Assembly (NCBI GenBank): GCA_965262615.1
Contig: OZ253545.1
Coordinates: forward strand, 1,115,113 to 1,179,112
DNA: 64,000 nucleotides
Direction of reading: 5' to 3'
Origin: Alphaproteobacteria bacterium
GTDB lineage: Bacteria > Pseudomonadota > Alphaproteobacteria > GM7ARS4 > G965262615
Shown here one piece after another: positions 15,258-48,010 of the stretch; the stretch's first letter is position 1; each line of letters begins with the position of its first letter. The notes below the pieces were generated by a model. That model did not search any database, was not told where the DNA came from, and worked only from the letters and a program-made list of their open reading frames with translations. The position numbers and the translations under genes were made by a program.

Positions 15258-15306
15258 GCCCGCAAATCAATTGCAACAAAATGATGAAATGTGGTAGGGT
15301 GGAGGC

Positions 15307-22020: not shown

Positions 22021-22054
22021 CTCCCCATCCTATCACATTCCATCATTTTTTGTG

Positions 22055-34705: not shown

Positions 34706-35954
34706 TGTTGGCGCGCTGCGTGTGACGCTGTGCACTTTCGCCATCCCCCATGAGCAGGCTGCGTTCTGCCAGAGCCAGTTCGGCGAGTCCCATGTTGCCA
34801 TTGCGTCCTGCCGCCGTGCTGTAAAAATGCCACGCCATGATGTTGTCGGATTCCTCCACCAGCACCAATTCCAATGCCTGCAACACCAGTGGCAGCAACG
34901 ATTCATCATTCATCGCCAGTGCGGCTTGCGCCCATCCCATTAAAATGAGCGGATGATTATCGCTCAGCTCCACCGCGCGCGCATACGATATGACGGCGGC
35001 ATGAGGCTGACCGTGTTCAAACAAAATCTGCCCTCGCAGTTCGTGCAGGTATGGGTCGTTTTCTCGCCCTTGCAAAAGTCCATCAATGATTGCCAGTGCA
35101 GTGTTCACATCCCCCGCTCGGTGGTGCACAATGGCTTTGGCGTAGTGACTGCCGAAGGAGTTGGGGTGAGTGGCGTAGAAATCAAGCACTTCATTGGGGG
35201 GCAGTAAAAACCCTTTGAGTTTGGCAACCATGCGCTCATGACGCATCTCATCGTGGGGATGATGGCAGCAGTCGTGCGGTTCATGATGCAGATGCTCCGC
35301 CATGAGGCGAATGCGCTCACCACTGAGAGGGTGGGTGAGTTGATAGGGGTCTATGTCCAAGCCTTGTTCTTTTTCTGCCAGCATGGAGAGGAATGAGTAT
35401 AGCCCTCCCACCGATTGTCCGCTGTTTTGCAGATAACTGACGGCGGCTTGGTCTGCCAGCGTCTCGTTGTGACGAAATTCCTCCAGCAACAGGCGATTGC
35501 CCACATTGGGCATGGCGATGACCCCCGCCAGCCCCACATCAAACTGCCCGCCTGCCATGGCGGCGGCACTGAGCAGCATGGTCATGAGATTGAAGATGCT
35601 GGTGTCAAAGGCGGCATCCTGCAGACGCAACAAATGCCCGCCGGTGATGTGTCCGATTTCGTGCGCCAGCACCCCCTTGACCTCATCGGCATTGCGGGTG
35701 TTCATCAAAAGCCCACTGTGCAAAAACATCCGTTGCCCCTCGGTGACAAAGGCATTGATGGATGAGTCGTTCAGCACCACCATCTGCACGGTGCCGAAAT
35801 CCAGCCCGCCCGCCGCAGCCAAAGGATACGCCCAAGAGTTAAGAGTGTCTTCAATTTCAGCGTCGCGAATGATGCTCGCAGCGGGGGTTGATGACGCAAC
35901 CACGCTCACCCACGACATCAGCACAAGAAAAATAAAGCGTTTCATAAAGGTCAT
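34635..35954 (-). CDS. M48-family zinc metalloprotease with C-terminal TPR domain (BepA/YfgC-like), periplasmic
   Basis: Signal peptide, HEIGHITGGH zincin motif and C-terminal TPR-like repeats. The 3' end lies inside copy 2 of the tandem duplication. Confidence 0.8.
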   Translation of the reverse strand: MTFMKRFIFLVLMSWVSVVASSTPAASIIRDAEIEDTLNSWAYPLAAAGGLDFGTVQMVVLNDSSINAFVTEGQRMFLHSGLLMNTRNADEVKGVLAHEIGHITGGHLLRLQDAAFDTSIFNLMTMLLSAAAMAGGQFDVGLAGVIAMPNVGNRLLLEEFRHNETLADQAAVSYLQNSGQSVGGLYSFLSMLAEKEQGLDIDPYQLTHPLSGERIRLMAEHLHHEPHDCCHHPHDEMRHERMVAKLKGFLLPPNEVLDFYATHPNSFGSHYAKAIVHHRAGDVNTALAIIDGLLQGRENDPYLHELRGQILFEHGQPHAAVISYARAVELSDNHPLILMGWAQAALAMNDESLLPLVLQALELVLVEESDNIMAWHFYSTAAGRNGNMGLAELALAERSLLMGDGESAQRHTQRANTWLAKDSPHQQRLRDIQLILSDS

Positions 35955-35999: not shown

Positions 36000-37652
36000 A
36001 TGAACAACAAAAAACTCATCGCATGGATTGCCATCACCGTCATTGCCCACACGGGATGGACAATGGGCGTGGCTCATGCCGATGAAACGGTAGATTTGCA
36101 CCAATTGATGGAAGACGCTCAACAAGGCGATGCCGATGCCCAATTCTATCTTGGGTTGATGTATGGCAATGGCGCGGGTGTCACGCAGGATTATGAGGCA
36201 GGCATCTATTGGGTCACAAAAGCCGCGGAACAATGGCATGCCGATGCCCAATACGCTCTTGGGGTGTTTTATAAAAATGGCGATGGTGTGGCACAGAATT
36301 ATGAGAAAGCCGTGTATTGGTATCAAAAAGCCGCGGCGCAAGGAAATGCCGATGCCCAATACGATCTTGGGTTGATGTATGGCAAGGGCGCAGGTGTCAC
36401 GCAGGATTATGAGGCAGGCATCTATTGGTTCACAAAAGCCGCAGAGCAAAACCATGCTGATGCAATAGAAATACTCAAGGAATTAGGCATGGCTCATGAA
36501 ACGGACGAATTGCACCATTTGATGGAACGCGCCCAGCAAGGCGACTCCGTATCCCAATTCTATCTTGGGACGATGTATGAACAGGGCAGAGGTGTCTCTC
36601 GAGATGTTGGACAAGCGGTGCAATGGTATCAAAAAGCCGCCAAGCAAGGATTTGCCCAAGCCCAATACAACCTTGGGTGGATGTATGAAAATGGCACAGG
36701 TGTTCCGCAAGATGATGAACAGGCGGTAGAATGGTATCAAAAAGCCGCGGCACAAGGACTTGCCAATGCTCAAAACAATCTGGCGGAGATGTATCGCGAG
36801 GGCAGAGGTGTTCCGCAGGATGATGAGCAAGCGTTGGAATTGTATCTAAAATCCGCCGAGCAAGGATATGATCGCGCTCAAACCACTATGGGCTGGATGT
36901 ATGACAATGGCATTGGTGTTGTGCAAGATTATGAGCAAGCCGCGCAATGGTTCACAAAAGCCGCGGTGCAAGGATTTGCCCGAGCTCAAAGTAATCTTGC
37001 TATGATGTATCTTCATGGCAGAGGTGTTCCGCAGGATTATGAGCAAGCCGCGCAATGGTGGAGAAAAGCCGCAAGGCAAGGCTATGCCAAGGCTCAATTC
37101 AATCTTGGGCTGATGTATCACAATGGAGATGGGGTTGCACAGGACGATGAGCAAGCTTTGTATTGGTGGGAGAAAGCCGCAAGACAAGGAAATAAAGATG
37201 CAATAGAAGCTCTCAAAATATTAGGCATGGCTGATGAAACGGACGAATTGCACCAATTGAGAGAACGCGCCGAGCAAGGCGATGCCGATGCCCAAAACTA
37301 TCTTGGTGTGATGTATAACACTGGCATGGGTGTGACGCAGGATAAAAAAGAAGCCGTGGAATGGTTCAAAAAATCCGCCGAACAAGGAAATGCCCTCGCC
37401 CAAGCCAATCTTGGAGTGATGTATAGGGATGGGATGGGTGTCACGCAGGATGATGAGGAAGCTGTGGAATGGTGGAAAAAAGCCGCAGAGCAAGAAAATG
37501 CCGTAGCCCAATACAATCTTGCTGTGATGTATGGCAAGGGAATCGGCGTGGCACAGAGTGATGAAAAAGCCGTCTATTGGTTCACAAAAGCCGCCAAACA
37601 AGGCGATGTTGATGCAATAGAAGTTCTCAAGAAATTAGGCATCACCGACTGA
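36000..37652 (+). CDS. Secreted Sel1-like repeat protein (550 aa; three tandem modules each ending DAIE-LK-LGM)
   Basis: Signal peptide ...IAHTGWTMGVAHA and about 13 Sel1 repeats. The last module is about 95% DNA-identical to 13380..13625. Confidence 0.85.
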   Translation: MNNKKLIAWIAITVIAHTGWTMGVAHADETVDLHQLMEDAQQGDADAQFYLGLMYGNGAGVTQDYEAGIYWVTKAAEQWHADAQYALGVFYKNGDGVAQNYEKAVYWYQKAAAQGNADAQYDLGLMYGKGAGVTQDYEAGIYWFTKAAEQNHADAIEILKELGMAHETDELHHLMERAQQGDSVSQFYLGTMYEQGRGVSRDVGQAVQWYQKAAKQGFAQAQYNLGWMYENGTGVPQDDEQAVEWYQKAAAQGLANAQNNLAEMYREGRGVPQDDEQALELYLKSAEQGYDRAQTTMGWMYDNGIGVVQDYEQAAQWFTKAAVQGFARAQSNLAMMYLHGRGVPQDYEQAAQWWRKAARQGYAKAQFNLGLMYHNGDGVAQDDEQALYWWEKAARQGNKDAIEALKILGMADETDELHQLRERAEQGDADAQNYLGVMYNTGMGVTQDKKEAVEWFKKSAEQGNALAQANLGVMYRDGMGVTQDDEEAVEWWKKAAEQENAVAQYNLAVMYGKGIGVAQSDEKAVYWFTKAAKQGDVDAIEVLKKLGITD

Positions 37653-37682
37653 TTCCCCCTCGCCTTGAGGCAAGGACAGGCA

Positions 37683-38114
37683 TCAAAAAAGTGCCGTGGC
37701 AACCATTCCCAACAGAGCCACCATCACGCTCACAAGAACAACAATCACCCGCGTCGCAAAGAGATTGAAAGCCTGCAACAACACATTGATATCTTCCTTA
37801 ATTTCAGTTCGCGCCTGAGCGATTTGAGTTTCCAGTTTGGCGATTTGAGTTTCCAGTTTGGCGTTATTTTCATTATTTTCAGCTCGCGCCTGAGCGATTT
37901 GAGCTTCCAGTTTGGCGATTTGAGCTTCCAGTTTGGCGATTTTGGTCTCCAGTTTGGCGATATCTTCCTTCGTGGCAAAATTCTTGCCTTGCTCTTTGAT
38001 GGTGGCAACATCCACCTTCAGAGCAACCACATCCGCTTTGAGGGCGACCACATCATCATACAAGCCATTCGCCTTGCGATGTTCGGTTGGTTTTTGTTCC
38101 GTCTGGATAGTCAT
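37683..38114 (-). CDS. Small coiled-coil protein with C-terminal TM anchor (DUF1640/CCDC90-like, tail-anchored)
   Basis: ...ALKADVVALKVDVATIKE...FATKEDIAKLE(IAKLEAQ)n...RVIVVLVSVMVALLGMVATALF. The ATKxDL/I motif and C-terminal TM resemble DUF1640. Start set at MTIQTEQ because the ORF-track extension is the promoter. Confidence 0.55.
   Translation of the reverse strand: MTIQTEQKPTEHRKANGLYDDVVALKADVVALKVDVATIKEQGKNFATKEDIAKLETKIAKLEAQIAKLEAQIAQARAENNENNAKLETQIAKLETQIAQARTEIKEDINVLLQAFNLFATRVIVVLVSVMVALLGMVATALF
37804..37957 (-). repeat. In-frame 21-bp tandem repeats (about 5 copies; heptad IAKLE(A/T)Q) nested within a ~75-bp repeat
   Basis: GATTTGAG(T/C)TTCCAGTTTGGC repeated on the plus strand. 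Confidence 0.85.
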
Positions 38115-38183
38115 GGTGGTTAGAATATGTGCATTTGCAGGGTTTGTCAATGCCAAGATGCCTTACGGTCATTGCAGATGACC
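38115..38183 (-). promoter_or_regulatory. Conserved promoter TTGACA-N17-TATTCT-N7-ATG plus upstream palindrome GGTCATTGCAGATGACC (38167..38183)
   Basis: Promoter and palindrome are conserved upstream of 4 of the 5 DUF1640-like paralogs (41657..41735, 45649..45715, 46249..46300). Confidence 0.5.
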
Positions 38184-38294
38184 ATGAGCAAGAGAAAACA
38201 TCACTCAAAACATTGGGCATACCCAACTAATTCGCCCTCGCTCTTGCTTTTTGCCATTGGTTTTTGTATGGGTGGCGTGCCCAATGGCAATCAA

Positions 38295-39476
38295 ATGAGG
38301 ATAGCTCCATTGAATGATCGACATCTCCCGTCTCGCCGCAGTGCCATTCCCTCATTTATTGTGATGGACATGATGGCGAAGGCATCGGCACTGGAACGGC
38401 GCGGGGTGAAGGTCATGCGTTTGGAGGCGGGCGCGCCGGACACCGCTCCGCCGCCCGCCATCCTCAAACAACTGGCACACACCCTCACCAAGCGCAATTT
38501 TGGCTACACCGATTCCACCGGAACGCCCCAGCTCAAAGAACGCATTGCATGGCTCTATGGGCATCGCTATGGGCTTGAGATTGACCCATCCCGCATCGTC
38601 ATCTCCAGTGGCTCATCGGCGTGTCTGACTCTGGCACTGCTGGCGGCGTTTGAGCATGGGGATGTGATTGCTCTGCCGCGTCCGTGTTATCCCGCCTATC
38701 GCCCCATGGCGGAGGCGTTGGGTCTGCGGGTGGTGGATATGCCGCTCACGGATGAGGACGGCTGGTGTCTGACGGCGCGTCATATTGAGCAGTGTGAGAC
38801 CAAACCGAGCGGCATCATTCTCACCAATCCCGCCAACCCCACCGGCGCACTGATGGACGAACACCAACTGGCAACCATTGCTGATTATTGCCGACATAAT
38901 GGTATCCGCATCATCAGCGATGAGATTTATCACGATGTCACCGATGATGACCACACAGCTCACAGCATCCTCTCGTTTGACCCCGATGCCATCGTGACCA
39001 GTGGCTTTTCCAAGTTTTTTGCGCTGCCGGGCTGGCGTGTGGGCTGGATGATCGCGCCTGTCGCTTTTGCCTCCTCCCTGCTGGCATTACAGCAAAATCT
39101 CTATGTCGCGCCGCCCAGCGCAGGACAAGAACTCGCGATTTCCATGCTACAAGAAGAGGTTATGGACACCATGAAACACCATGTACGGCGATGGAATGAC
39201 AACCGCAATGTTTTGTTGCGGTTTATTGAGCAAAGCCCACTCAGTCTGACGGCTCAGCCGCGCGGCGGATTTTACATTTATTGCGATGCCGCCGCCGTCA
39301 CCCATGACAGCGTGGCGTGGTGTGATGAGATATTGCATCGTCATCATGTGGCACTGGCGGCGGGCGTGGATTTTGACCCCGTGGACGGTCATAAATTCGT
39401 GCGTTTTTCCTTCTGCCGACCAAACAATGAGATTACTACTGCCTGCAAGATTCTCGACAAAGTGTTTAATTCTTAA
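38295..39476 (+). CDS. Class I/II (aspartate/aromatic-type) PLP aminotransferase
   Basis: PLP-lysine motif SGFSKFFALPGWRVGW and N-terminal ...SAIPSFIVMDMMAKASALERRG. Confidence 0.8.
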   Translation: MRIAPLNDRHLPSRRSAIPSFIVMDMMAKASALERRGVKVMRLEAGAPDTAPPPAILKQLAHTLTKRNFGYTDSTGTPQLKERIAWLYGHRYGLEIDPSRIVISSGSSACLTLALLAAFEHGDVIALPRPCYPAYRPMAEALGLRVVDMPLTDEDGWCLTARHIEQCETKPSGIILTNPANPTGALMDEHQLATIADYCRHNGIRIISDEIYHDVTDDDHTAHSILSFDPDAIVTSGFSKFFALPGWRVGWMIAPVAFASSLLALQQNLYVAPPSAGQELAISMLQEEVMDTMKHHVRRWNDNRNVLLRFIEQSPLSLTAQPRGGFYIYCDAAAVTHDSVAWCDEILHRHHVALAAGVDFDPVDGHKFVRFSFCRPNNEITTACKILDKVFNS

Positions 39477-39553
39477 CCGTGAAAAAGCTGTTTTATCAGC
39501 CTCATCAGTGTGATACAATCGCGGCGGTCAATTGATGGCGCGAGGAGTTTGGT

Positions 39554-41077
39554 GTGGAAAAATTCTTTGAATACATTTTCCCAAAAAAAATCAGTACGAG
39601 GTCGCGAGTCTGTCTCTTATTCCTTGTACCCGCATTGTCCATTTTAATCCTTCTTCCATCAATTCTTGAAGCTTGGAATCAACCTCCATTGCCAAGCCAA
39701 TTTTTCTATTCTTTAATTACGGTAACAGGATTTCTGCTTTTTGCTTTGATTTTATCATTAATAAAAGATTTTGAAAAATCATCCGAGCCAACGCGTGACA
39801 TAGCTAAAGACTTACATGATATGCTTCCTGAATTGGCGTTGTATATCACCGAACAATTGGTATCGGATAACATAAAAAATATGCAAAAGAAAGAAGCAAC
39901 AAGACAATTTAATCTTGGTGTCAAACATTTATTTGGCAAGGGTGTTAAAAAAAATGCACAAAAAGCATTCCTCCACTTTGAAGCAGCCGCCCAACAAGGG
40001 GATGCCTACGCCCAATTCAATCTTGCTTTGATGTATAGGAATGGCAAAGGAGTGGCACAAAATGATAAGAAAGCCCTGTATTGGTATCAAAAAGCCGCCC
40101 AACAAGGGGATGCTAGAGCCCAATTCAATCTTGCTTGGATGTATCATGAGGGCAAAGGAGTGGCACAGAATGATGAGAAAGCCCTGTATTGGTATCAAGA
40201 ATCCGCCCAACAAGGGGATGCTAGAGCCCAATTCAATCTTGCTTTAATGTATCATGAGGGCAAAGGAGTGGCACAAAATGATGAGAAAGCCCTGTATTGG
40301 TATCAAAAAGCCGCCCAACAAGGGAATGCCAAAGCCCAATTCAATCTTGCTTGGATGTATGATGAGGGCAAAGGAGTGGCACAGAATGATGAGAAAGCTG
40401 TGTATTGGTATCAAGAATCCGCCCAGCAAGGGGATGCCAAAGCCCAATTCAATCTTGCTTGGATGTATGATGAGGGCAAAGGAGTGGCACAAAATGATAA
40501 GAAAGCACTATATTGGTATCAAGAATCCGCACAACAAGGAAGTGCCAGAGCCCAAATCAGTCTTGGGATGGCTTATGTTGGCGGAAAAGGTATTTCACAG
40601 GATTATCATGAGGCGATGCAATGGTTCAAAAAAGCCGCAGAACAAGGGAGTACCGATGCCCAAAACAATATTGGCTTTATGTATGCCACTGGCATGGGTA
40701 TTAAACCAAATGAGAAAAAAGCAGTGCATTGGCTCACAAAAGCTTCAGAGCAAGGATTTGCCATAGCCCAATTCAATCTCGCTGTGGTGTATGAAAGTGT
40801 GACACAGAATGATCAAAAAGCGAAGCACTGGTATCAAAAAGCCGTCCAGCAAGTTAGTGACGAAACCAAATTCACTCAGCAAGAAGAGCAGGAGAGGATC
40901 AAAGAAGCGGAACAAGAAGGGGATGCCAATTCCTTGTATCTTCTTGGCGTGAGATACGCCATTGGCGAAGAAGTCACGCGAGATTATGAAAAAGCGGCGC
41001 ACTGGTTCACCCAAGCATCTCAGCTGAACTTTATTCAAGCCACGCGAGCTCTTGAATTGCTGAAAAAAGTCAAATAA
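39554..41077 (+). CDS. Sel1-like repeat protein with N-terminal TM segments (AQFNLAxMYxEGKGVAQNDxKA variant)
   Basis: About 11 Sel1 repeats. Confidence 0.85.
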   Translation: MEKFFEYIFPKKISTRSRVCLLFLVPALSILILLPSILEAWNQPPLPSQFFYSLITVTGFLLFALILSLIKDFEKSSEPTRDIAKDLHDMLPELALYITEQLVSDNIKNMQKKEATRQFNLGVKHLFGKGVKKNAQKAFLHFEAAAQQGDAYAQFNLALMYRNGKGVAQNDKKALYWYQKAAQQGDARAQFNLAWMYHEGKGVAQNDEKALYWYQESAQQGDARAQFNLALMYHEGKGVAQNDEKALYWYQKAAQQGNAKAQFNLAWMYDEGKGVAQNDEKAVYWYQESAQQGDAKAQFNLAWMYDEGKGVAQNDKKALYWYQESAQQGSARAQISLGMAYVGGKGISQDYHEAMQWFKKAAEQGSTDAQNNIGFMYATGMGIKPNEKKAVHWLTKASEQGFAIAQFNLAVVYESVTQNDQKAKHWYQKAVQQVSDETKFTQQEEQERIKEAEQEGDANSLYLLGVRYAIGEEVTRDYEKAAHWFTQASQLNFIQATRALELLKKVK

Positions 41078-41101
41078 AGCTCAAACTACACGGGGTAAAC
41101 A

Positions 41102-41312
41102 ATGGACATGGCTCATACTGATTTGCAACAATTGATGGAGCGCGCTCAACAAGGCGATGCCCTCAGCCCAAAACAGTCTGGGGTGCATGTATGAACAAGG
41201 CAGAGGTGTCACGCAGGATTATGAAGAAGCCGTGCGATGGTTCAAAAAAGCCGCGAGGCAAGGAAATAAAGCTGCCATAAAATCCCTCAAAATTTTAGGC
41301 ATGACCGACTAA
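41102..41312 (+). pseudogene. Degenerate fragment of a Sel1-like repeat gene (internal stop), ending ...KILGMTD*
   Basis: MDMAHTDLQQLMERAQQGDA...(stop)...RGVTQDYEEAVRWFKKAARQGNKAAIKSLKILGMTD is homologous to the module boundaries of the 36000..37652 gene. Confidence 0.6.
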
Positions 41313-41326
41313 TTCAAGGGTTTTCG

Positions 41327-41656
41327 TCACTTCAAAATAAGTGTCACCAGAATGCCCACAAGGGACACAATCACTCCCGCCAGAGCCACAATCACTCGCG
41401 CAGCGGCGCGATTGACGGCATCCAACAACTCATTTTTCGCCTTATCAATCTTGCCATCCACGACCGATATTTTGTCCAGCAGTTCAGCTCGCAAATCGGC
41501 AACATCTTCCTTCGTGGCAAAATGATTGCACTGCTCCTTGATGGTGGCAACATCCACTTTGAGAGTCACCACATCCGCTTTGAGAGCGACCACATCATCA
41601 TGCAAGCCATTCGCACCGCGATGCTTTGGTGGTTCTTGATTCGTTTCTATCGTCAT
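41327..41656 (-). CDS. DUF1640/CCDC90-like small coiled-coil tail-anchored protein
   Basis: Paralog of 37683..38114, with the same C-terminal TM and the FATKEDVADL motif. Confidence 0.55.
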   Translation of the reverse strand: MTIETNQEPPKHRGANGLHDDVVALKADVVTLKVDVATIKEQCNHFATKEDVADLRAELLDKISVVDGKIDKAKNELLDAVNRAAARVIVALAGVIVSLVGILVTLILK

Positions 41657-41808
41657 GGTGATGAGAGTATGGGCATTTCAAGAATTTGTCAATGGCAAGA
41701 CGCATTACGATCATTGCAGATGACCATGAGGCAAGAGTCACCATCATTCAAAAAAGAGCAGTTGCAATTGCGTCTTAACTTTGCCATCCAAAAGCGGTAT
41801 AAAAGCCC

Positions 41809-42307
41809 CATGATGATTGCACGGTTGCTCGCCATCATAATGTTGCTCATGAGTGTCACCGCAACTTCCAGTCACGGCGAGATGATGCGCGTCAAAGGCA
41901 TGGGGGGAATCTTCAATTTTGCCAAGGACAATAATTTTGCCTACGGCGCGGAGGTCACCCTGCCTTCACTCTTTTTGCCTTTGGGCTTGAATTTTGATGT
42001 GGGATTTCTCGCCACCGACCGCCGCGCCGTCTACGGCTACGCCGCCATTGAACGCGCTTTTTATGTTGATGACGACTGGCGCATCATCCCCTCATTGGCG
42101 ATGGGATACTACGAACAAAAGGACGATAAAGATCTCGGATTTGAACTCAACTTCAAATCGGGCGGCGAGATTGCCTACCGCTTTGCTCACAACGCATGGG
42201 CGGGAATTTCGGCTTTTCATATCTCCAACGCCTCGCTCAGCAGTCATAATCCGGGCACGGAGCTCTTTGTCTTCACCCTCACCTACGATGTCAGTATAAT
42301 TCCATGA
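41809..42307 (+). CDS. Possible outer-membrane lipid A deacylase (PagL-like) / small beta-barrel protein
   Basis: Signal peptide, about 145-aa mature protein with alternating hydrophobic beta-strand pattern, and an FHISNAS (His-x-Ser) motif near the C-terminus. Confidence 0.35.
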
Positions 42308-43254
42308 GCGAGCGCATTCACGACTCCATCACCGACCTCATTGGCAAAACGCCTCTGTTGCGCCTCAATCGCTTTGCGCGCTTTCACCAGTGCGAGGCGG
42401 AGCTCATCGCCAAACTGGAGCTTCTCAATCCTCTTTCATCGGTGAAGGATCGCATCGGGCTTGCCATGATTGATGATGCCGTGGCAGCGGGACGCATCAC
42501 CGCAAACACCACCATCATAGAACCCACATCCGGCAACACGGGCATTGCTCTGGCATTCGTGGCAGCCGCCCGAGGGCTGAAACTCATTTTAACCATGCCC
42601 GCCAGCATGTCTGTGGAACGCCGCAAAATGCTCCAATTGCTGGGCGCACAAACCCATCTCACCGACCCCGCCCGAGGCATGAAGGGCGCGATTGAAAAAG
42701 CACACGAACTGCACAAAGAAATCAAGGATTCCATCATTTTGCAACAGTTTGAAAATCCCGCCAATCCAACCATTCATCGCCACACCACGGCGCAAGAAAT
42801 ATGGCACGATGTGGGCAGGCGGCTGGATATTTTCGTCTCGGGCGTGGGAACGGGCGGCACGGTGACCGGCGTGAGTGAGGTCATCAAAGAGCAGCACCCC
42901 GCCCTTCATGTGGTGGCGGTAGAACCCGAAGACTCCCCCGTTCTGTCGGGAGGCACGGCGGGACCCCACAAAATTCAAGGCATTGGCGCAGGCATGATTC
43001 CCAAAAATCTCAACCAACAAATGATTGATGAGGTCATCACCATCAGCAACGAGACGGCGTTTGAGACGGCGCGCACGGTGGCGCGTCTTGAGGGCTTGGC
43101 GGTAGGCATTTCATCGGGGGCGGCTCTGGCGGCGGCTTTAGAGGTGGGACAGCGAGCCCAAAACAAAGGCAAACGAATCCTTGTCATTCTGCCGTCCGCC
43201 GCCGAACGCTACCTCTCCACCGAGCTTTTTTCCGATGGCATGGATACCAAATAA
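42304..43254 (+). CDS. cysK: Cysteine synthase A (O-acetylserine sulfhydrylase)
   Basis: PLP-lysine motif SVKDRIG, GNTGIALA, and TGGT/SSGA loops. Confidence 0.9.
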   Translation: MSERIHDSITDLIGKTPLLRLNRFARFHQCEAELIAKLELLNPLSSVKDRIGLAMIDDAVAAGRITANTTIIEPTSGNTGIALAFVAAARGLKLILTMPASMSVERRKMLQLLGAQTHLTDPARGMKGAIEKAHELHKEIKDSIILQQFENPANPTIHRHTTAQEIWHDVGRRLDIFVSGVGTGGTVTGVSEVIKEQHPALHVVAVEPEDSPVLSGGTAGPHKIQGIGAGMIPKNLNQQMIDEVITISNETAFETARTVARLEGLAVGISSGAALAAALEVGQRAQNKGKRILVILPSAAERYLSTELFSDGMDTK

Positions 43255-43308
43255 CCGTGAAGAATTTTGGTATTGACAAATTCTGCAAATTCACATATTC
43301 TCACCATC

Positions 43309-43590
43309 ATGACGACAGAGACGAAGCAAAAAAAAGAATATCTCACGGTGACGGCAAAAACCTATCGCTTGAAGAGCGGTCGCGCTCTTCTCATGGTGGA
43401 TTTTACCACTCATGAAAGTGTCGCCGCCCTGCAAAGTGACGATGCTGTCAGTTTGTTGCGGGGAGATATCGCTCAACTGCGTGAAGAAATTGAGAGGGCG
43501 AAAAATGAAGTGATCTATGCCATCAATCGCGCCGCTGTGGGAGTCATTGTTTCTTGTGTGATCGTTATGGTGGCAATCATTCTTAAGTGA
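43309..43590 (+). CDS. DUF1640/CCDC90-like small coiled-coil tail-anchored protein
   Basis: Paralog. Preceded by TTGACA-N17-TATTCT-N7-ATG. Confidence 0.5.
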   Translation: MTTETKQKKEYLTVTAKTYRLKSGRALLMVDFTTHESVAALQSDDAVSLLRGDIAQLREEIERAKNEVIYAINRAAVGVIVSCVIVMVAIILK

Positions 43591-44348
43591 CCCTCTCTCG
43601 CCATGAGATGGAATTCTATGCCAGCCACATCATGCTCCCGCAGATTGGCGGCAGGGGACAAGAAAAAATCGGGCGTGCCAAAGTGCTGGTGGTGGGTGCG
43701 GGAGGCATCGGCACACCCCTCATCATCTATCTGACTACTGCGGGCGTGGGAACAATCGGCATCGCCGATGATGACACCGTTGAAACCAGCAATTTGCAAC
43801 GCCAAATTCTCTACCGCCAAAACCACATCGGCGCGCTCAAAACCACCACCGCCATTGATGAAGCACGCGCCATCAATTCCGCCGTCACCCTCATTCCTCA
43901 CCCCCAACGCATGGATGATGACACTCTTGCCCACATCCTGCCGAGCTATGACATCATTGCCGATGGCTCGGACAACATCACCACCGCTCACTGTCTCAAT
44001 AAAGCGGCGGTCAAACAGGGCAAAATCCTCATCAAGGCATCGGTGAGCGGCTGGAGCGGACAAATCACCACCATCATGGGCGGCAATACAAACGCTCCCT
44101 GCTACGCCTGCCTCTTTCCACCATCGGACACCGATGCCAACGCTCCTTCATGCGTTGAGCAAGGGGTTCTCAATATGGCGGTGTGTGTCATGGCGGGATG
44201 GCTCGGTGCGGAGGTCATCAAGTGCATTATCGGGACGGGACAATCCCTCAAAGGACGACTCCTCCTCTATGACGCGCTGCAAGCGTCCATGCACACCATC
44301 CAATACGATAAAAATCCCAGCTGCCCCGTCTGTGCCGCTAGGGTTTGA
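43587..44348 (+). CDS. ThiF/MoeB/HesA-family E1-like adenylyltransferase
   Basis: Rossmann motif VLVVGAGGIGTP, and CxxC pairs (CYAC ... CPVC). Confidence 0.8.
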   Translation: MTLSRHEMEFYASHIMLPQIGGRGQEKIGRAKVLVVGAGGIGTPLIIYLTTAGVGTIGIADDDTVETSNLQRQILYRQNHIGALKTTTAIDEARAINSAVTLIPHPQRMDDDTLAHILPSYDIIADGSDNITTAHCLNKAAVKQGKILIKASVSGWSGQITTIMGGNTNAPCYACLFPPSDTDANAPSCVEQGVLNMAVCVMAGWLGAEVIKCIIGTGQSLKGRLLLYDALQASMHTIQYDKNPSCPVCAARV

Positions 44349-44871
44349 CCTGAATGCTACAGCCCCTCGTCATGTAATAGCGCGGGCTATCATCATCGTC
44401 TCTTGCCAACAAGCCAAAGCGTTGCGGGTCATAGGCGTAGGAAATGGTCTGTTCGCGCGGGCGATAGCGATAGGGAAACTGACGAATATACATTGATTGA
44501 ATGTCATGAGCCTCTTGTTCTCGCATTGCATAGCGCACGCGCTCGCTGTAGTCACCAAAGCGTTCCTGATGCTTATTGCGGTGCTGCATATGATGCACCA
44601 GTTCATGCACCAAAATAGAGACTGCGCACACATTCATCGCCCGTCCCATATCGTCACGCAAATAAACCGTCCGCTCCTCAATGTGATAAAATGCCACCAC
44701 CGCACACCGTCGTCCCCCACACGCCATCTCTTGCAACGAATCCGATGACGCAAAAACCACCGAAGGGGTCTCCGAAGGCATGTCATAGCCAGAGACGCTC
44801 GCCACCCACAGCAATAACGAGGCAACCATATCTGTCAAAGAACTGACTCCAGAGTGAATCATGATACTCAC
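44338..44871 (-). CDS. Putative secreted HExxH zinc metallopeptidase-like protein
   Basis: N-terminal hydrophobic segment and a single HELVHHMQH motif. The family was not recognised. Confidence 0.3.
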   Translation of the reverse strand: MSIMIHSGVSSLTDMVASLLLWVASVSGYDMPSETPSVVFASSDSLQEMACGGRRCAVVAFYHIEERTVYLRDDMGRAMNVCAVSILVHELVHHMQHRNKHQERFGDYSERVRYAMREQEAHDIQSMYIRQFPYRYRPREQTISYAYDPQRFGLLARDDDDSPRYYMTRGCSIQVKP

Positions 44872-44981
44872 CTATAGTCTCAATGACAAGATGAATGAGG
44901 CATGAATTGGGAAAGAATTTCAAGCTGTGAGATTCTTGGCAAAGTGTTTAATTCTTAATGGGAATATGGTAAGCTGCCACC

Positions 44982-45352
44982 ATGAGAACCACCCGCCTTA
45001 TCACATGGATTGCCATTGTCGTCATTGCTCATACGGGCTGGATGCCGAGCGTGGCTCATGCCGAAGAAGATGCCATAGCCCAATACAATCTTGGGGTGGA
45101 TTATTACAACGACAAGGACTACCTACAAGCAGCGTATTGGTGGAAAAAAGCCGCCGAACAAGGGAATGCCAATGCTCAAACCACTCTGGCGTTGATGTAT
45201 TACGATGGCACAGGTGTCACACAGGACGGTCTGCAGGCGGCGTATTGGTTCAAAAAAGCCGCAGAACAAGGACATAAAGGGGCGATAAAAGCCCTCAAGA
45301 AGGAAATAAAGATGCGATAAAAGCCCTCAAAACATTAGGCATGACCAACTAA
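44982..45352 (+). CDS. Short secreted Sel1-like repeat protein, C-terminus disrupted by a 32-bp duplication
   Basis: Signal peptide IAHTGWMPSVAHA and 2 Sel1 repeats. The GCGATAAAAGCCCTCAA direct repeat causes a premature stop at 45320; removing the insertion restores ...KALKTLGMTN*. Confidence 0.6.
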
Positions 45353-45366
45353 TTCAAGGGGTTTTA

Positions 45367-45648
45367 TCATTTAAGAATTAGTGTTACCAGAATGCCGCCC
45401 AGAGCCACAATCACTCCCACGAGAGCCACAATCACCCGCACGGCAAAGCGATTGATGGCTTCCAACAACTCATTTTTCGCCTCAATGACATCTTTTTTGG
45501 TGGCAAAATGATTGCACCGCTCCTTGATGGTGGCAACATCCACCTTGAGATCCACCATATCATCACGCGAGCCATTGGCACCGCGATGCTTGGGTGTTTT
45601 CTGCACCTCGCGATGCTTTGGTGGTTCTTGCTGCGTTTCCATTGTCAT
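45367..45648 (-). CDS. DUF1640/CCDC90-like small coiled-coil tail-anchored protein
   Basis: Paralog with the same promoter and C-terminal TM. Confidence 0.5.
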   Translation of the reverse strand: MTMETQQEPPKHREVQKTPKHRGANGSRDDMVDLKVDVATIKERCNHFATKKDVIEAKNELLEAINRFAVRVIVALVGVIVALGGILVTLILK

Positions 45649-45735
45649 GGTGATGAGAATATGTGCGTTTGCAGGGTTTGTCAATAACAAAATTCTTCAC
45701 GGTCATTTGGCATGACCATGAGGCAAGGGTTTTCG

Positions 45736-46248
45736 TCACTTCAAAATAAGTGTCACCAAGATGCCCACAAGAGACACAATCACTCCCACAAGAGTCACAA
45801 TCACCCGCGTAGCAACGCGATTGAAAGCTTCTAACACCTCATTTTTTGCCTTCTCAATCTTGTGATCCGTGGCTGACATTTTCTCCAGCAGTTCAGCTCG
45901 CAGTTCAGCCATGTCAGCTCGCAGTTCGGCGATGTTTTCCCTATTGTCAGCTCGCAGTTCGGCGATGTTTTCCCTATTGTCAGCTCGCAGTTCGGCGATG
46001 TTTTCCTTATTGTCAGCTCGCGCCTCAGCAATTTGAGTTTCCAGCTTGGCGATTTGAGCTTCCAGTTTGGCGATTTTGGTCTCCAACTTGGCGATATCTT
46101 CCTTCGTGGCAAAATTCTTGCCTTGCTCTTTGATGGTGGCAACATCCACCTTCAGAGCGACCACATCCGCTTTGAGGGCGACCACATCATCATACAAGCC
46201 ATTCGCCTTGCGATGTTCGGTTGGTTTTTGTTCCGTCTGGATAGCCAT
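45736..46248 (-). CDS. DUF1640/CCDC90-like small coiled-coil tail-anchored protein with two in-frame repeat arrays
   Basis: Paralog. Contains (ADNRENIAELR)x3 and the IAKLE heptad array. Confidence 0.55.
   Translation of the reverse strand: MAIQTEQKPTEHRKANGLYDDVVALKADVVALKVDVATIKEQGKNFATKEDIAKLETKIAKLEAQIAKLETQIAEARADNKENIAELRADNRENIAELRADNRENIAELRADMAELRAELLEKMSATDHKIEKAKNEVLEAFNRVATRVIVTLVGVIVSLVGILVTLILK
45913..46011 (-). repeat. In-frame 33-bp tandem repeat (3 copies)
   Basis: GTCAGCTCGCAGTTCGGCGATGTTTTCCCTATT occurs 3 times on the plus strand. Confidence 0.9.
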
Positions 46249-46280
46249 AGTGGTTAGAATATGTGCATGTCAAGCGTTTG

Positions 46281-47615
46281 TCAATCACAAGATGCCTCAC
46301 GGTCATTTGGCATGAATTGGGCAAGAATTTCATGCAGCTGCTGCCACGCTTCACGCAGTGCCTGTGGTGCGATGCAATACGGTGGCATCATATAGACCAC
46401 ATTACCCAACGGACGCAGCAACAGCCCGCGCCGCAACGCCTCTTCGCCAATGGCTGTGCCAATGGTGGCGTGATAGCCTTCATCCTTGCCATCAATGGTG
46501 AAGGCGGCAATCGTTCCCATGATGCGCGGCTTGGTGATGTGAGGCAGAGTCATGATGTCTTGCATGGCGGTGTGATGAATGTGTTCTATGGCGCGAATGC
46601 GCGTCCATGTGTCGTCCGCATCAAACAGCTGCAATGATGCCAGTGCCGCGGCGCATGCCAATGGATTGGCGGTGTAGGAATGACCATGAGCAAAAAAGTG
46701 TCCCCCATCATGAGCAAAAGCCTCATAGATATGGTTCTGAATGATGGTCGCCGCAAGGGGAAGCGTGCCACCAGTCAATCCTTTGGCACAACAGAGAATG
46801 TCCGGCTGGTGTGCCAATTGGTCGCTGGCGAACAATGAGCCCAAGCGTCCAAAGGCGGTCATGACTTCGTCAAAAATAATAAGCGCATCGCTTTTGGTGC
46901 GAATCATGGCAACCGCCTCATTGAAAAAACGCCTTGAGCTCATCCGCATGCCACTCGCTCCCTGCACCAACGGCTCTAAAATGACCGCATTGAGAGTGTG
47001 CCCGTTGGTGTGCAAGTGTTCAGATAGTGTCTCAAGGGCGCGCTCTTCGGTCACGCCCATTGCGTTGTCATGCAGCCATGTCTCGGGATACGAGGTGAAA
47101 TGAAACGGATAGAGCAAGGATTCAAACCCCTCATAGAGCTGGCATGAGACCCCCGCCGCCATCGCCCCCATGGTGTCACCGTGATAGCCTCCCTCCAATG
47201 CCAGAAAGTGCTTGGGTTCTTTGCCCTTTTTGCGCCAGTAGAGCCATGCCATTTTGAGAGCAATTTCAACGGCGCACGAGCCATTATCGGAGAAAAACAC
47301 CCGCTGCAATGATGATGGTGTCACCCGCGCCAGATGCTCTGCCACCCGCACCGCGCCCTCATGAGTCACACCGGCAAACAACACATGAGACAATCGCTCA
47401 CTTTGTTTGTGAATGGCTTTCATGATGGCAGGATGACGATGACCGTGGGTCACCACCCACCACGAAGAGATGAGATCCTGATAGCCGCGATCCGTTTCAT
47501 CATAGAGAACACTGCCTTCAGCTCGCGTGATGACCAACGGCGCACCGCCCTTATCAAACGGATGCCACAAATGAGTCGCGTCTAAAGACGAAAGATTATG
47601 TGGAAACGCCATCAA
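46281..47615 (-). CDS. bioA: Adenosylmethionine-8-amino-7-oxononanoate aminotransferase
   Basis: Class-III aminotransferase with PLP-lysine motif CCAKGLTGG, in a bio operon. Confidence 0.88.
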   Translation of the reverse strand: MMAFPHNLSSLDATHLWHPFDKGGAPLVITRAEGSVLYDETDRGYQDLISSWWVVTHGHRHPAIMKAIHKQSERLSHVLFAGVTHEGAVRVAEHLARVTPSSLQRVFFSDNGSCAVEIALKMAWLYWRKKGKEPKHFLALEGGYHGDTMGAMAAGVSCQLYEGFESLLYPFHFTSYPETWLHDNAMGVTEERALETLSEHLHTNGHTLNAVILEPLVQGASGMRMSSRRFFNEAVAMIRTKSDALIIFDEVMTAFGRLGSLFASDQLAHQPDILCCAKGLTGGTLPLAATIIQNHIYEAFAHDGGHFFAHGHSYTANPLACAAALASLQLFDADDTWTRIRAIEHIHHTAMQDIMTLPHITKPRIMGTIAAFTIDGKDEGYHATIGTAIGEEALRRGLLLRPLGNVVYMMPPYCIAPQALREAWQQLHEILAQFMPNDREASCD

Positions 47616-48010
47616 ACAAGATGGTGAATTTTTTCATGATGCCCTTGAGGGGATTTTGAGTTTTTGCCATCACGACCATCCAAATAGGTCTTGTAGAAAA
47701 GATTGTGATAGTGAGCAATGAGCTGTGTGACATCATTGTCATCTTCCACTCTAAAAACACGCACATTTCTGACACACTGACCAAACCACTCATGATGTGC
47801 CACCATCTCTTGCAAGGCACTGACGCACTCCAGCCAAGAAGATGCTCCCAAATAGACACTGCCCTGCACATTGACCAAAGCATACTTCTTGAAAACATCA
47901 CCAATGGCTTTGTAGGCATTTTGATAGGAAGTGGGACATTCTCGCTCCAGACACTTTGTGTCCATATCAAACACCACGGCATAAGTTGAACTGCTGGTTT
48001 TCGGTGTCAT
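47612..48010 (-). CDS. vapD: VapD-family (Cas2-fold) endoribonuclease-like protein
   Basis: YAVVFDMD...YQNAYKAIGDVFKKYALVNVQGSVYLG...EWFGQCVRNVRVFRVEDDNDVTQ parallels H. pylori/Haemophilus VapD (YALAFDL...QGSVYV...EWFKKSVRDIRAFKVEDFSD). Confidence 0.75.
   Translation of the reverse strand: MTPKTSSSTYAVVFDMDTKCLERECPTSYQNAYKAIGDVFKKYALVNVQGSVYLGASSWLECVSALQEMVAHHEWFGQCVRNVRVFRVEDDNDVTQLIAHYHNLFYKTYLDGRDGKNSKSPQGHHEKIHHLV

What the first reader, a model, noticed from the sequence alone, without database searches (positions are those of the whole stretch)
36000..46330. Three repeats of a convergent cassette: secreted Sel1-repeat gene followed by an opposite-strand DUF1640-like tail-anchored coiled-coil gene
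At 37652/37683, 41312/41327 and 45352/45367 a Sel1-type ORF ending ...LK-LGMTD/ITD* is followed within 15-30 bp by the stop codon of an opposite-strand small coiled-coil/TM gene. The junction DNA (TAATTCAAGGG(G)TTTTCGTCACTTCAAAATAAGTGTCACC) is conserved between copies, so the pair was duplicated as one unit. In two copies the Sel1 partner has decayed to a fragment while the small gene stays intact, which argues that the small gene is the selected component. Five such small genes occur within 9 kb. DUF1640/CCDC90-like proteins are essentially uncharacterised in bacteria. Repeated physical coupling to secreted Sel1 proteins suggests a functional pair, for example a membrane-anchored partner or chaperone for a Sel1 effector, or a cassette used for recombinational variation.
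Basis: seen in the sequence. Interest (0 to 1): 0.7.

Follow-up and report, generated by a model that had tools for sequence, protein, structure and literature searches.

The report
Duplicated Sel1 plus tail-anchored coiled-coil module
A Sel1-repeat gene facing one or two small membrane-anchored coiled-coil genes has been copied to three places in this 10-kb stretch and is still being gained, lost and reshuffled between co-occurring strains, but nothing shows that the two proteins work together.

Summary
Five paralogous small genes lie in 37.6-46.3 kb, and three arrays end stop-to-stop against a Sel1 gene or gene fragment.

- **The small genes.** Each is a compact unit: TTGACA-N17-TA(T/C)TCT, then ATG 7 nt later (probably leaderless). 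The ORF encodes 93-170 aa (88-172 in relatives). The protein has a conserved N-terminus, an invariant FATKED beta-layer motif, a length-variable heptad/11-mer stalk and a C-terminal membrane helix.
- **Family.** It is tiny: about 25 sequences, all from a few ENA metagenomes. It is a head-less remote relative of DUF1640 and scores below Pfam's threshold.
- **The pairing is largely by descent.**
  - The site-3 module carries a copy of the site-2 aminotransferase 3' end.
  - It is inserted in the bioA 3' end between 24-27-nt direct repeats.
  - It is absent from 3 of 7 haplotypes of this locus.
  - One haplotype keeps the Sel1 gene but lacks the small gene.
  - Small genes also occur without Sel1 at 3 of 8 sites, and once among ankyrin genes.
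  - 11 of the window's 13 intact Sel1 genes have no small-gene neighbour.
- **Topology.** The predicted topology puts the two proteins on opposite sides of the inner membrane.

Verdict: a recombination-prone paralogous module, not a demonstrated functional pair. Moderate interest.

The parts
36000..37652 (+). Sel1-A: 550 aa, signal-peptide-like N-terminus, 12 Sel1 repeats in three sub-modules that each end ...LKxLGMx(H/D); tail ...LKKLGITD*
   Evidence: (PF08238, E=3e-146, 12 stretches)
37653..37682 (.). Site-1 junction: 30-nt spacer with a short hairpin (CCTTGCC/GGCGAGG)
37683..38114 (-). S1: small tail-anchored coiled-coil gene, 143 aa from the conserved ATG
38122..38190 (-). S1 promoter (TTGACA-17-TATTCT, ending 7 nt before the ATG) and upstream hairpin GGTCAT-N5-ATGACC
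38194..38267 (+). Remnant of a second Sel1 tail (...LKTLGIPN*) followed by a remnant of a small-gene 5' end. It corresponds to the real Sel1 tail in haplotype L089, which has no small gene here
   Evidence: (D16, D17)
39554..41077 (+). Sel1-B: 507 aa, two N-terminal hydrophobic segments, 10 Sel1 repeats, different tail (...LELLKKVK*). It does not abut a small gene. The same gene type sits at site 1 in haplotype L087
41100..41312 (+). Frameshifted last sub-module of an A-type Sel1 gene (ORF 41157-41312, one repeat, tail ...LKILGMTD*)
   Evidence: (D14)
41327..41656 (-). S2: small gene, 109 aa
41664..41720 (-). S2 promoter (TTGACA-17-TACTCT) plus a remnant of the stop codon and hairpin of a deleted upstream paralogue. 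That paralogue is present in 5 of 7 haplotypes
43244..43301 (+). S3 5' flank element and promoter. The element begins 11 nt before the end of cysK, so the cysK stop codon lies inside it
   Evidence: (I1)
43309..43590 (+). S3: divergent paralogue, 93 aa, degenerate beta-layer (FTTHES), no Sel1 neighbour, overlaps the moeB start. The protein is identical in 7 haplotypes
44899..44925 (.). Left direct repeat of the site-3 insertion. Within 44871-44925 (minus strand) lies the left-behind original bioA 3' end (EILSQFMPHSSCH*)
   Evidence: (D20)
44925..44958 (+). Copy of the aminotransferase 3' end (matches 39443-39476), marking site 3 as a segmental duplication of site 2
   Evidence: (D19)
44982..45352 (+). 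Sel1-C fragment: signal peptide plus 2 repeats (ORF to 45320). A 32-nt tandem duplication throws the tail ...LKTLGMTN* out of frame
   Evidence: (D15, D18)
45367..45648 (-). S4: small gene, 93 aa
45656..45721 (-). S4 promoter and the S5-S4 intergenic hairpin (10-bp stem, -14.7 kcal/mol, z = -3.75, followed by AGAAUUUUGU)
45736..46248 (-). S5: small gene, 170 aa. It is a mosaic: the 5' half is 93% identical to S1 and the 3' half 85% to S2. It has 3.3 near-identical 33-nt repeats. Orthologues in L089 and L090 are 148 aa
   Evidence: (D6, D9, D13)
46256..46335 (-). S5 promoter overlapping the new bioA C-terminus (...FMPNDREASCD*, stop codon inside the -35 box), plus the right direct repeat 46309-46335

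Best explanation
The region holds three paralogous copies of one recombination-prone module.

**The module.** An 'A-type' Sel1-repeat gene converges on an array of one or two small genes. The Sel1 gene has a signal peptide and the tail ...LKxLG[MI]x[DN]*.

**The small-gene unit.** Each small gene is a self-contained unit with three parts:
- A near-consensus sigma-70 promoter whose -10 box ends 7 nt before the ATG. This implies a leaderless mRNA.
- An ORF for a short protein: conserved N-terminal helix, FATKED beta-layer, variable-length heptad/11-mer stalk, and a C-terminal membrane helix.
- A 3' hairpin.

The proteins are a lineage-restricted, head-less offshoot of the DUF1640 type of membrane-anchored stalk proteins, which are probably trimeric. 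The stalk most likely faces the cytoplasm.

**Why the pairing recurs.** The repeated Sel1/small-gene pairing is inherited, not independently assembled. The module spread by segmental duplication and illegitimate recombination into the 3' ends of housekeeping genes. This happened in a genome where about a quarter of the local DNA is Sel1 genes. The module is still being remodelled by unequal crossing-over and gene conversion.

**Shown:** the anatomy, the paralogy, the duplication scars, the polymorphism between haplotypes, purifying selection on the N-terminus, and the remote DUF1640 relationship.

**Inferred:** the leaderless transcript, the topology, trimer formation, and the lack of a direct Sel1 partnership.
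For: **Unit anatomy**
- The promoter-ATG motif occurs 5 times against 0 expected, once at each small gene.
- The same geometry is kept in distant homologues from other samples (L091, L093, L096).
- No Shine-Dalgarno sequence is present in the 7 nt before the ATG (read directly from the sequence).

**The small ORFs encode proteins**
- pN/pS is 0.20 over the 24 codons ending at FATKED, from 17 distinct copies.
- All length differences between orthologues are in frame, by 7 or 11 aa.

**Fold and family**
- F46, A47, T48, K49 and D51 are invariant or nearly invariant. They match the beta-layer consensus [aliphatic]-A-T-K-[polar]-[DE] described for DUF3782 and DUF1640 (PMC4786415).
- The AF2 monomer breaks its helix exactly at HFAT, residues 45-48.
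- The best PDB sequence hit is the Tcar0761 beta-layer construct 5APZ, E=5.7e-4.
- hhalign against DUF1640 proteins gives 98.4% probability over the KxKNExL-plus-membrane-helix region.

**Restricted distribution**
- 17 hits in 5.8 billion proteins, all from ENA.
- 7 representatives below 1e-10, then a gap in scores.
- Nothing in GTDB representative genomes, JGI metagenomes, IMG/VR, phages or plasmids.

**Descent and dynamics**
- Site 3 carries a copy of the aminotransferase 3' end from site 2.
- Site 3 sits between 24-27-nt direct repeats of the bioA 3' end. The old bioA tail is left behind. The site is empty in L086, L087 and L088.
- Small-gene copy number varies from 0 to 2 per site among 7 haplotypes whose housekeeping proteins are mostly 94-100% identical.
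- S5 is a mosaic of S1 and S2.
- Different Sel1 types occupy the same site in different haplotypes.

**Loose coupling between the two gene types**
- Small genes occur without Sel1 in L001-L003 and L095 (two sites) and at the S3 site. One lies among ankyrin genes in L093.
- 11 other intact Sel1 genes in the window have no small gene nearby.
Against: - A fourth, separate site (L004/L094, next to atpI) also has small genes converging on a Sel1 gene. In L094 the same A-type tail fragment and junction travel with the small gene. So 4 of 8 sites show the pairing, which is more than Sel1 density alone would predict. The Sel1 tail may be retained because it supplies the small gene's 3' end or terminator.
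- The comparison haplotypes are low-coverage (3-10x) long-read metagenome contigs. Their small indels are unreliable, and some structural differences could be assembly artefacts, although each state is seen in at least 2 contigs.
- No expression, localisation or oligomerisation data exist.
- The DUF1640 proteins used for hhalign were themselves picked by similarity to this family, so that test is partly circular.
Confidence: 0.6

Rival explanations
1. Functional pair. The A-type Sel1 gene and the small gene are co-selected. Either the proteins cooperate, or convergent transcription across a 14-nt gap couples their expression. In the second case the small gene would read antisense into the Sel1 3' end, and the Sel1 tail would supply the small gene's terminator or 3' UTR.
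For: - The pairing is seen at 4 of 8 sites, including an unlinked one (L004/L094).
- The Sel1 tail fragment is retained next to the small gene even when the rest of the Sel1 gene is gone (41100-41312, L094).
- The 14-nt spacer leaves no room for separate terminators.
- Terminator-like antisense sites lie inside Sel1 tails (37606-37591). The antisense of the KKAA codons gives GCGGCTTTTTT (read from the sequence).
Against: - L089 has the Sel1 gene without a small gene.
- Tandem upstream copies (S5, and the distal site-2 genes), S3 and the L001 and L093 copies have no Sel1 tail.
- 11 of 13 intact Sel1 genes are unpaired.
- Predicted compartments differ (inference).
- The fold of the junction region is not better than shuffled sequence (z = -0.26 and -1.25).
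- All paired copies share one junction, so they may trace to a single event.
Confidence: 0.2
2. Programmed variation system. The Sel1 fragments and extra small-gene copies act as silent donor cassettes for gene conversion into expressed copies, diversifying an exposed protein.
For: - Sel1 genes differ strongly between haplotypes (about 66-86% in local alignments) while flanks are about 96% identical.
- The small genes are mosaics, and there are in-frame repeat-number changes, partial Sel1 copies and allele replacement at the same site.
Against: - No recombinase, invertase or invertible promoter lies in the region.
- Every small gene has its own intact promoter, so none is 'silent'.
- The window holds only three Sel1 pieces (two ORF fragments and a tail remnant).
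- The variation seen is between strains, not within a clone.
- Ordinary unequal crossing-over between 108-nt, 21-nt and 33-nt repeats explains it.
Confidence: 0.1
3. Selfish or mobile small-gene unit. The promoter-ORF-hairpin unit proliferates on its own, by analogy with type I toxin loci or hairpin-bearing miniature elements, and lands at the 3' ends of genes.
For: - The compact autonomous units are found at 8 or more sites, often in tandem, with copy number varying between strains.
- The C-terminal codons or stop codons of cysK and bioA lie inside the unit's flank. The A-type Sel1 tail also resembles the unit's 3' flank (reading).
- Site 3 is flanked by 24-27-nt direct repeats.
- The protein has a membrane-inserting C-terminus.
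Against: - No transposase and no terminal inverted repeats are present.
- The site-3 insert is a segmental copy that includes foreign flanking DNA (the aminotransferase 3' end), not a clean element.
- The proteins (88-172 aa, mostly hydrophilic coiled coil) are unlike type I toxins, which are under 60 aa and hydrophobic.
- The N-terminus is under purifying selection.
- No antisense RNA is evident and Rfam finds nothing.
Confidence: 0.08

Closest known systems
DUF1640 / CCDC90-like family (Pfam PF07798; MCUR1, CCDC90B and prokaryotic homologues; Adlakha et al. 2019, Structure 27:464, cited via PMC7279490; Hartmann et al. 2016, PMC4786415)
   Same: - The beta-layer motif x-A-T-K-x-[DE] sits at the start of the stalk.
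- The stalk repeats resemble DIAxLRxE.
- A KxKNExL motif precedes a C-terminal membrane helix.
- Overall size is similar.
- hhalign gives 98.4% probability over the last 58 columns, and 37 of 60 weak profile hits belong to this Pfam family.
   Different: - There is no N-terminal head (the FDTxxxVKxL...QAE helix pair). In its place is a unique conserved N-terminus, MTIQTEQKP..HR.ANGLxDD.
- Scores are below Pfam's gathering threshold.
- The gene has a conserved leaderless promoter.
- The family is multi-copy, recombining and confined to one uncultured lineage.
Tcar0761 / DUF3782-type alpha/beta coiled coils (PDB 5APZ; PMC4786415)
   Same: It shares the MATKDD-type beta-layer motif. This is the best PDB sequence match (E=5.7e-4). 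The AF2 model breaks its helix at this motif.
   Different: The proteins here have a single beta-layer rather than 14 nonad repeats. They have a membrane anchor and no endonuclease domain.
Borrelia Bdr proteins (from my own knowledge, not tested here)
   Same: A multi-copy paralogous family of small proteins with a conserved N-terminus, a central repeat region that varies in copy number between paralogues and strains, and a C-terminal hydrophobic anchor in the inner membrane.
   Different: No sequence similarity was detected. Bdr genes are plasmid-borne in spirochaetes and have different repeats.
E. coli ElaB/YqjD/YgaM (DUF883) C-tail-anchored inner-membrane proteins (from my own knowledge)
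   Same: They are about 100 aa, with a helical cytoplasmic part and an extreme C-terminal membrane helix.
   Different: No Pfam match to DUF883 was found. They have no beta-layer and no repeat-length variation.
Sel1-repeat (SLR) proteins, Pfam PF08238
   Same: The partner genes are textbook members, with 10-14 repeats and E down to 1e-146.
   Different: The local gene density is unusual: 13 genes, 24.5% of 64 kb. The A-type sub-module structure ends LKxLGMxD.

Membership tests
DUF1640 / CCDC90-like (PF07798) | Score at or above Pfam's gathering threshold (33.5 bits) | tested here: not met
   The best score is S5 at 21.0 bits, E=3.3e-4; S3 scores 16.4 bits; the others give no hit. Only 2 of 20 family members match at E<0.01.
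DUF1640 / CCDC90-like (PF07798) | N-terminal head domain preceding the stalk | tested here: not met
   HMM matches cover only profile positions 55-172 or 138-172 of 175. The FDTxxxVKxL...QAE head seen in true members has no counterpart in alignment A2.
DUF1640 / CCDC90-like (PF07798) | Beta-layer motif [aliphatic]-A-T-K-[polar]-[DE] at the start of the stalk (PMC4786415) | tested here: met
   F-A-T-K-E-D is present, with F46 invariant and A47, T48, K49 and D51 at least 90% conserved. The first residue is F rather than aliphatic. S3 is degenerate (FTTHES). The AF2 helix breaks at residues 45-48.
DUF1640 / CCDC90-like (PF07798) | C-terminal transmembrane anchor after the coiled-coil stalk | tested here: met
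   The last 20-25 residues are hydrophobic (…RVIVALVGVIVSLVGILVTLILK) with 0-1 residues after them. hhalign aligns this region with DUF1640 anchors.
DUF1640 / CCDC90-like (PF07798) | Trimeric coiled coil | not testable with these tools
   Only a monomer model was possible. Foldseek against the PDB gave no match.
Sel1 repeat proteins (PF08238) | Tandem ~36-aa Sel1 repeats above the Pfam threshold | tested here: met
   36000-37652: 471 bits, 12 stretches. 39554-41077: 334 bits, 10 stretches. Fragments score 53 and 60 bits.
Type I toxin-antitoxin loci | Toxin under ~60 aa and mostly hydrophobic; overlapping antisense RNA | tested here: not met
   The proteins are 88-172 aa with a long hydrophilic coiled coil. 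Rfam found nothing in the window. The presence of an antisense RNA could not be tested.
Integron gene cassettes | Promoterless ORFs in one orientation, attC sites, adjacent integrase | tested here: not met
   Every unit has its own promoter. Orientations are mixed: S3 is on + and the others on -. The neighbours are housekeeping genes and there is no integrase.
Prophage, plasmid or defence-island gene | Homologues in phage, plasmid or defence collections | tested here: not met
   No tblastn hit in phages or plasmids and none in IMG/VR. PADLOC hits are coiled-coil noise. The only notable hit is phrog_9415 (unknown function), E=4.5e-12 for S5.

The most novel reading that the evidence does not exclude
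The small proteins could be more than housekeeping membrane stalks. They might be tail-anchored, SNARE-like or 'ruler' proteins that belong to the same host- or envelope-interaction gene islands as the Sel1 and ankyrin repeat proteins. On this reading, stalk length and copy number would be under diversifying selection. The 14-nt convergent arrangement would act as an antisense-coupled switch between a Sel1 gene and its small-gene array.

My evidence does not exclude this. The genes sit next to eukaryote-like repeat genes at 5 of 8 sites, they vary between co-occurring strains, and nothing is known about their targets.
Probability: 0.1. Interest if true: 0.65.

Novelty: new variant of a known kind. 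Interest (0 to 1): 0.35.

Why it matters
- Bacterial DUF1640-type proteins have no known function. This lineage offers a stripped-down version: no head, one beta-layer, and a stalk that changes length in units of 7 or 11 residues. It also has natural copy-number and knock-out variants among co-occurring strains. That makes it a convenient system for asking what such membrane stalks do and whether stalk length matters.
- The conserved promoter-at-the-ATG design is a clean candidate for leaderless expression.
- The locus documents how a repeat-rich genome copies a gene module into the 3' ends of essential genes, rewriting the bioA and cysK ends, without disrupting them.
- The finding does not reveal a new Sel1 partner system. 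That part of the original idea should be set aside unless interaction data appear.

Tried and rejected
- **Curated families.** Pfam and NCBIfam searches with the five small proteins gave only sub-threshold coiled-coil matches (FlxA, ABC_tran_CTD, DUF4349, SMC-like). PADLOC gave only coiled-coil noise.
- **RNA families.** Rfam found nothing in the whole window.
- **Structure search.** Foldseek of the AF2 monomer against the PDB gave 0 matches. A two-helix rod is uninformative.
- **Wider collections.** The family profile found nothing in GTDB representative genomes, JGI metagenomes or IMG/VR. There was no tblastn hit in phage or plasmid collections.
- **Exact look-up.** S2 is not on record as an exact sequence. 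S3 is, and that look-up gave the six comparison haplotypes.
- **Organism.** A cysK scan gave at most 65% identity, mostly to Alphaproteobacteria. The lineage therefore has no close species representative. Searching papers for the sample names gave nothing relevant.
- **Bidirectional terminator at the 14-nt junction.** The predicted hairpin contains G-U pairs and a 21-nt loop, and the region folds no better than shuffled sequence. Not claimed.
- **GGTCAT-N5-ATGACC inverted repeat as an operator.** It sits directly after the stop codon of the upstream gene in tandem arrays and folds well (z = -3.75). A 3' hairpin of the preceding unit is therefore the simpler reading.
- **Integron cassette, type I toxin and prophage readings** were rejected (see the membership tests).

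Full report
**1. What is in the sequence**

The ORF map and Pfam give this order:

| Coordinates | Strand | Feature |
|---|---|---|
| 34635-35954 | - | M48 peptidase |
| 36000-37652 | + | Sel1-A (550 aa, 12 repeats) |
| 37683-38114 | - | S1 |
| ~38385-39476 | + | aminotransferase |
| 39554-41077 | + | Sel1-B (507 aa, 10 repeats) |
| 41157-41312 | + | Sel1 fragment |
| 41327-41656 | - | S2 |
| to 42307 | + | PagL-like gene |
| 42304-43254 | + | cysK |
| 43309-43590 | + | S3 |
| 43587-44348 | + | moeB/thiF |
| 44338-44871 | - | 177-aa zincin-like gene |
| 44982-45320 | + | Sel1 fragment |
| 45367-45648 | - | S4 |
| 45736-46248 | - | S5 |
| 46281-47615 | - | bioA |

- tblastn finds exactly these five small paralogues in the 64-kb window.
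- The third Sel1 tail (...LKTLGMTN*, ending at 45352) is out of frame with its ORF because of a 32-nt tandem duplication.
- The junction core CCCTTGAATTAGTYGGTCATGCC occurs only at sites 2 and 3. Site 1 has a 30-nt spacer with a small hairpin.

**2. Anatomy of the small-gene unit**

Aligning the five copies with their flanks shows that the best-conserved DNA is not the ORF. It is the 39 nt TTGACA-N17-TA(T/C)TCT-N7-ATG.

- This motif occurs five times in the window against 0 expected by chance.
- The generic promoter scan picks up four of the five copies.
- The -10 box ends 7 nt before the ATG, and those 7 nt (for example AACCACC) hold no Shine-Dalgarno sequence. I therefore infer leaderless mRNAs.
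- The same geometry is present in distant homologues from other samples (L091, L093, L096).

Upstream of the promoter lies an inverted repeat, GGTCAT-N5-ATGACC.

- In tandem arrays it follows the previous gene's stop codon directly.
- It folds into a 10-bp hairpin (-14.7 kcal/mol, z = -3.75).
- The terminator scan flags it.
- I read it as the 3' hairpin of the unit.

**3. The proteins**

Alignment of the five window copies with 15 database relatives shows four parts:
- a conserved N-terminus, MTIQTEQKP.(E/K)HR.ANGL(H/Y)DD;
- a helix, LKVDVATIKEQ, followed by the invariant F-A-T-K-E-D;
- a middle made of heptads (IAKLE[AT][KQ]) and 11-mers (ADNRENIAELR) that varies from 0 to about 80 residues;
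- the motif KAKNE(L/V)L.A.NR, then about 22 hydrophobic residues ending the protein.

FATKED fits the beta-layer consensus [aliphatic]-A-T-K-[polar]-[DE]. Hartmann et al. described this consensus for DUF3782 and found it 'prominently at the beginning of the C-terminal stalk' of DUF1640 membrane proteins (PMC4786415).

Structure-related results:
- The AF2 monomer (pLDDT 77) has helices 15-44 and 49-108. The break falls exactly at HFAT.
- The best PDB sequence hit is the Tcar0761 beta-layer construct 5APZ (E=5.7e-4). 6H9L follows at E=0.5.
- Foldseek found nothing.

The ORFs are real:
- pN/pS is 0.20 in the N-terminal block.
- All orthologue length differences are in frame: S5 is 170 aa against 148 aa; the distal site-2 gene is 149 against 156 aa; the L001 and L003 copies are 98 against 105 aa.

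**4. Family relationships**

- No curated model passes its threshold.
- The word-indexed search of 5.8 billion proteins gives only 17 relatives, all unnamed and all from ENA metagenomes.
- The exhaustive profile search gives 7 representatives below 1e-10. After a gap there are about 60 hits between 1e-6 and 1e-3.
- 37 of those 60 are Pfam CCDC90-like/DUF1640.
- Most of the rest are head-less tail-anchored proteins with xATKxD motifs and the same architecture.
- hhalign against 18 head-bearing DUF1640 proteins gives 98.4% probability over 58 columns, covering KxKNExL and the membrane helix. This test is partly circular, because those proteins were found with this profile.
- phrog_9415, a phage family of unknown function, matches S5 at E=4.5e-12.

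My conclusion is that these proteins are a lineage-restricted, head-less relative of DUF1640 and not a Pfam member.

**5. Is the Sel1 pairing functional or inherited?**

S3 is on record as an exact sequence. Looking it up returned six versions of this same locus from one long-read metagenome (L085-L090). Their housekeeping proteins are mostly 94-100% identical to the window's.

Small-gene counts per site:

| Haplotype | Site 1 | Site 2 | S3 site | Site 3 |
|---|---|---|---|---|
| window | 1 | 1 | 1 | 2 |
| L085 | 1 | 2 | 1 | 1 |
| L086 | 1 | 2 | 1 | empty |
| L087 | 1 | 1 | 1 | empty |
| L088 | truncated remnant (67-aa C-terminal ORF) | 2 | 1 | empty |
| L089 | 0 | 2 | 1 | 2 |
| L090 | 1 | 2 | 1 | 2 |

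- In L089 the site-1 Sel1 gene ends ...LKMLGITN* and runs straight into the aminotransferase upstream region.
- The S3 protein is identical in all seven haplotypes.

Comparison of the empty and filled site 3:
- The 1.4-kb block 44923-46308 lies between 24-27-nt direct repeats of the bioA 3' end.
- The original bioA tail (EILSQFMPHSSCH*) is stranded at 44871-44925.
- bioA now ends ...FMPNDREASCD*. These codons come from the small-gene 5' flank, and the stop codon lies inside the -35 box.
- The left end of the block is a copy of the aminotransferase 3' end. Site 3 is therefore a segmental duplication of site 2.
- In the same way, the cysK stop codon lies inside the S3 5' flank.

Other signs of ongoing recombination:
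- S5 is a mosaic: its 5' half is 93% identical to S1 and its 3' half 85% identical to S2.
- The Sel1-B gene type sits at site 2 in the window but at site 1 in L087.

**6. Association statistics**

Eight genomic sites are known for the small-gene family in this lineage:
- four have a convergent Sel1 gene (sites 1, 2 and 3, and the atpI site in L004/L094);
- one lies inside an ankyrin-repeat gene cluster (L093);
- three have neither (S3, and the two sites in L001-L003 and L095).

Conversely, the window contains 13 full-length Sel1 genes, which with the two fragments make up 24.5% of its bases. Eleven of the 13 have different tails and no small gene or promoter motif nearby.

- With Sel1 genes this dense, some adjacency is expected by chance.
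- All paired copies share one junction, which points to one founding event followed by copying.
- In L094 the A-type tail fragment travels with the small gene to the atpI site. This fits copying, but it also fits a cis role for the tail as the small gene's 3' end. I keep that as the main rival.

**7. Mechanism and confidence**

*Shown*
- A compact promoter-ORF-hairpin unit.
- Paralogy and mosaicism.
- Duplication scars.
- Strain-level gain, loss and repeat-number change.
- Purifying selection.
- A remote DUF1640 relationship.

*Inferred*
- Leaderless translation.
- A cytoplasm-facing, probably trimeric stalk anchored by its tail in the inner membrane.
- Periplasmic Sel1 proteins. Sel1-A and Sel1-C begin M..KK/R-hydrophobic-AHA|(D/E)E.
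- Hence no direct protein partnership.

I put 0.6 on 'module inherited by duplication in a Sel1-saturated, recombination-prone genome, with no specific partnership'. I put 0.2 on a real cis or trans coupling, and less on programmed variation or selfish spread.

**8. Caveats**

- The comparison contigs have 3-10x long-read coverage, so their frameshifted Sel1 ORFs may be sequencing errors. Each large structural state is seen in at least two contigs.
- The organism is unidentified. cysK is at most 65% identical to GTDB representatives, mostly Alphaproteobacteria. The atpI-atpB-atpE-atpF'F layout in L004 is alphaproteobacterial in type (from my own knowledge).
- No expression or biochemical data exist.

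**9. Verdict**

This is a new, head-less, multi-copy variant of a known but uncharacterised kind of membrane stalk protein. It sits in a paralogous module with Sel1 genes, and the pairing is best explained by descent.

Noticed in passing
window 875-22029: There are eleven further full-length Sel1-repeat genes: 875-2245, 2299-3510, 3514-4623, 4715-5269, 5774-7105, 11758-13050, 13054-13647, 13651-14562, 15298-16533, 16596-17345 and 20467-22029. Many have N-terminal hydrophobic segments. Counting the flagged region as well, Sel1 genes make up 24.5% of the 64-kb window, an extreme local expansion.
   Followed up: partly
window 34283-34711: A 223-nt tandem duplication (1.9 copies, 94% identical) lies between the NuoF-like formate dehydrogenase subunit gene and the M48 peptidase gene. 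In related contigs 48-aa ORFs are called here, one or two depending on the haplotype.
   Followed up: no
window 46281-46308 and 44871-44925: bioA has a replaced C-terminus (...FMPNDREASCD*), encoded by the small-gene 5' flank, with its stop codon inside the -35 box. The original tail (EILSQFMPHSSCH*) is stranded 1.4 kb away. Haplotypes without the insert end ...FMPHSSRH* or ...FMPHSSCH*.
   Followed up: yes
window 43244-43254: The last codons and stop codon of cysK (GMDTK*) lie inside the S3 5' flank element. The last five residues did not align with cysK homologues in the genome scan.
   Followed up: partly
window 47612-48010: A VapD-like ORF (NCBIfam E=1.2e-8, below cut-off) sits between bioA and bioD. 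It is only about 80% identical among haplotypes whose flanking genes are 95-99% identical.
   Followed up: no
window 44338-44871: A 177-aa protein with an HELVH zincin motif (weak DUF6647/DUF6782 matches). It is 99-100% conserved in all haplotypes (100% in five of six) and borders the variable site 3.
   Followed up: no
L004 1260-1345 and L094 5860-6005: A variable-number tandem repeat of a 15-nt unit containing the -35 box (ATTATTGACAAACCA) lies upstream of the first small gene at the atpI site: 3 copies in L004 and 6 in L094.
   Followed up: no
L093 7290-10284: A small-family gene (P0012, 130 aa) is embedded co-directionally in a cluster of three ankyrin-repeat genes (232, 210 and 414 aa), next to the tuf-secE-nusG-rplKAJL cluster. 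The lineage therefore carries both Sel1 and ankyrin expansions, a pattern typical of host-associated bacteria.
   Followed up: partly
window 36000-37652: Sel1-A is built of three sub-modules. Each begins (E)T(D/V)(E/D)LHxL(M/R)E(D/R)A(Q/E)QGD and ends AIExLKxLG(M/I)x(H/D). It looks like three fused A-type genes. The gene tail LGMTD* corresponds to an internal module boundary.
   Followed up: partly
window 43309-43590: S3 is a strongly diverged paralogue. It has no ANGLxDD motif and its beta-layer is degenerate (FTTHES). Even so, its protein is identical in 7 haplotypes, and its last codon and stop overlap the moeB GTG start.
   Followed up: partly
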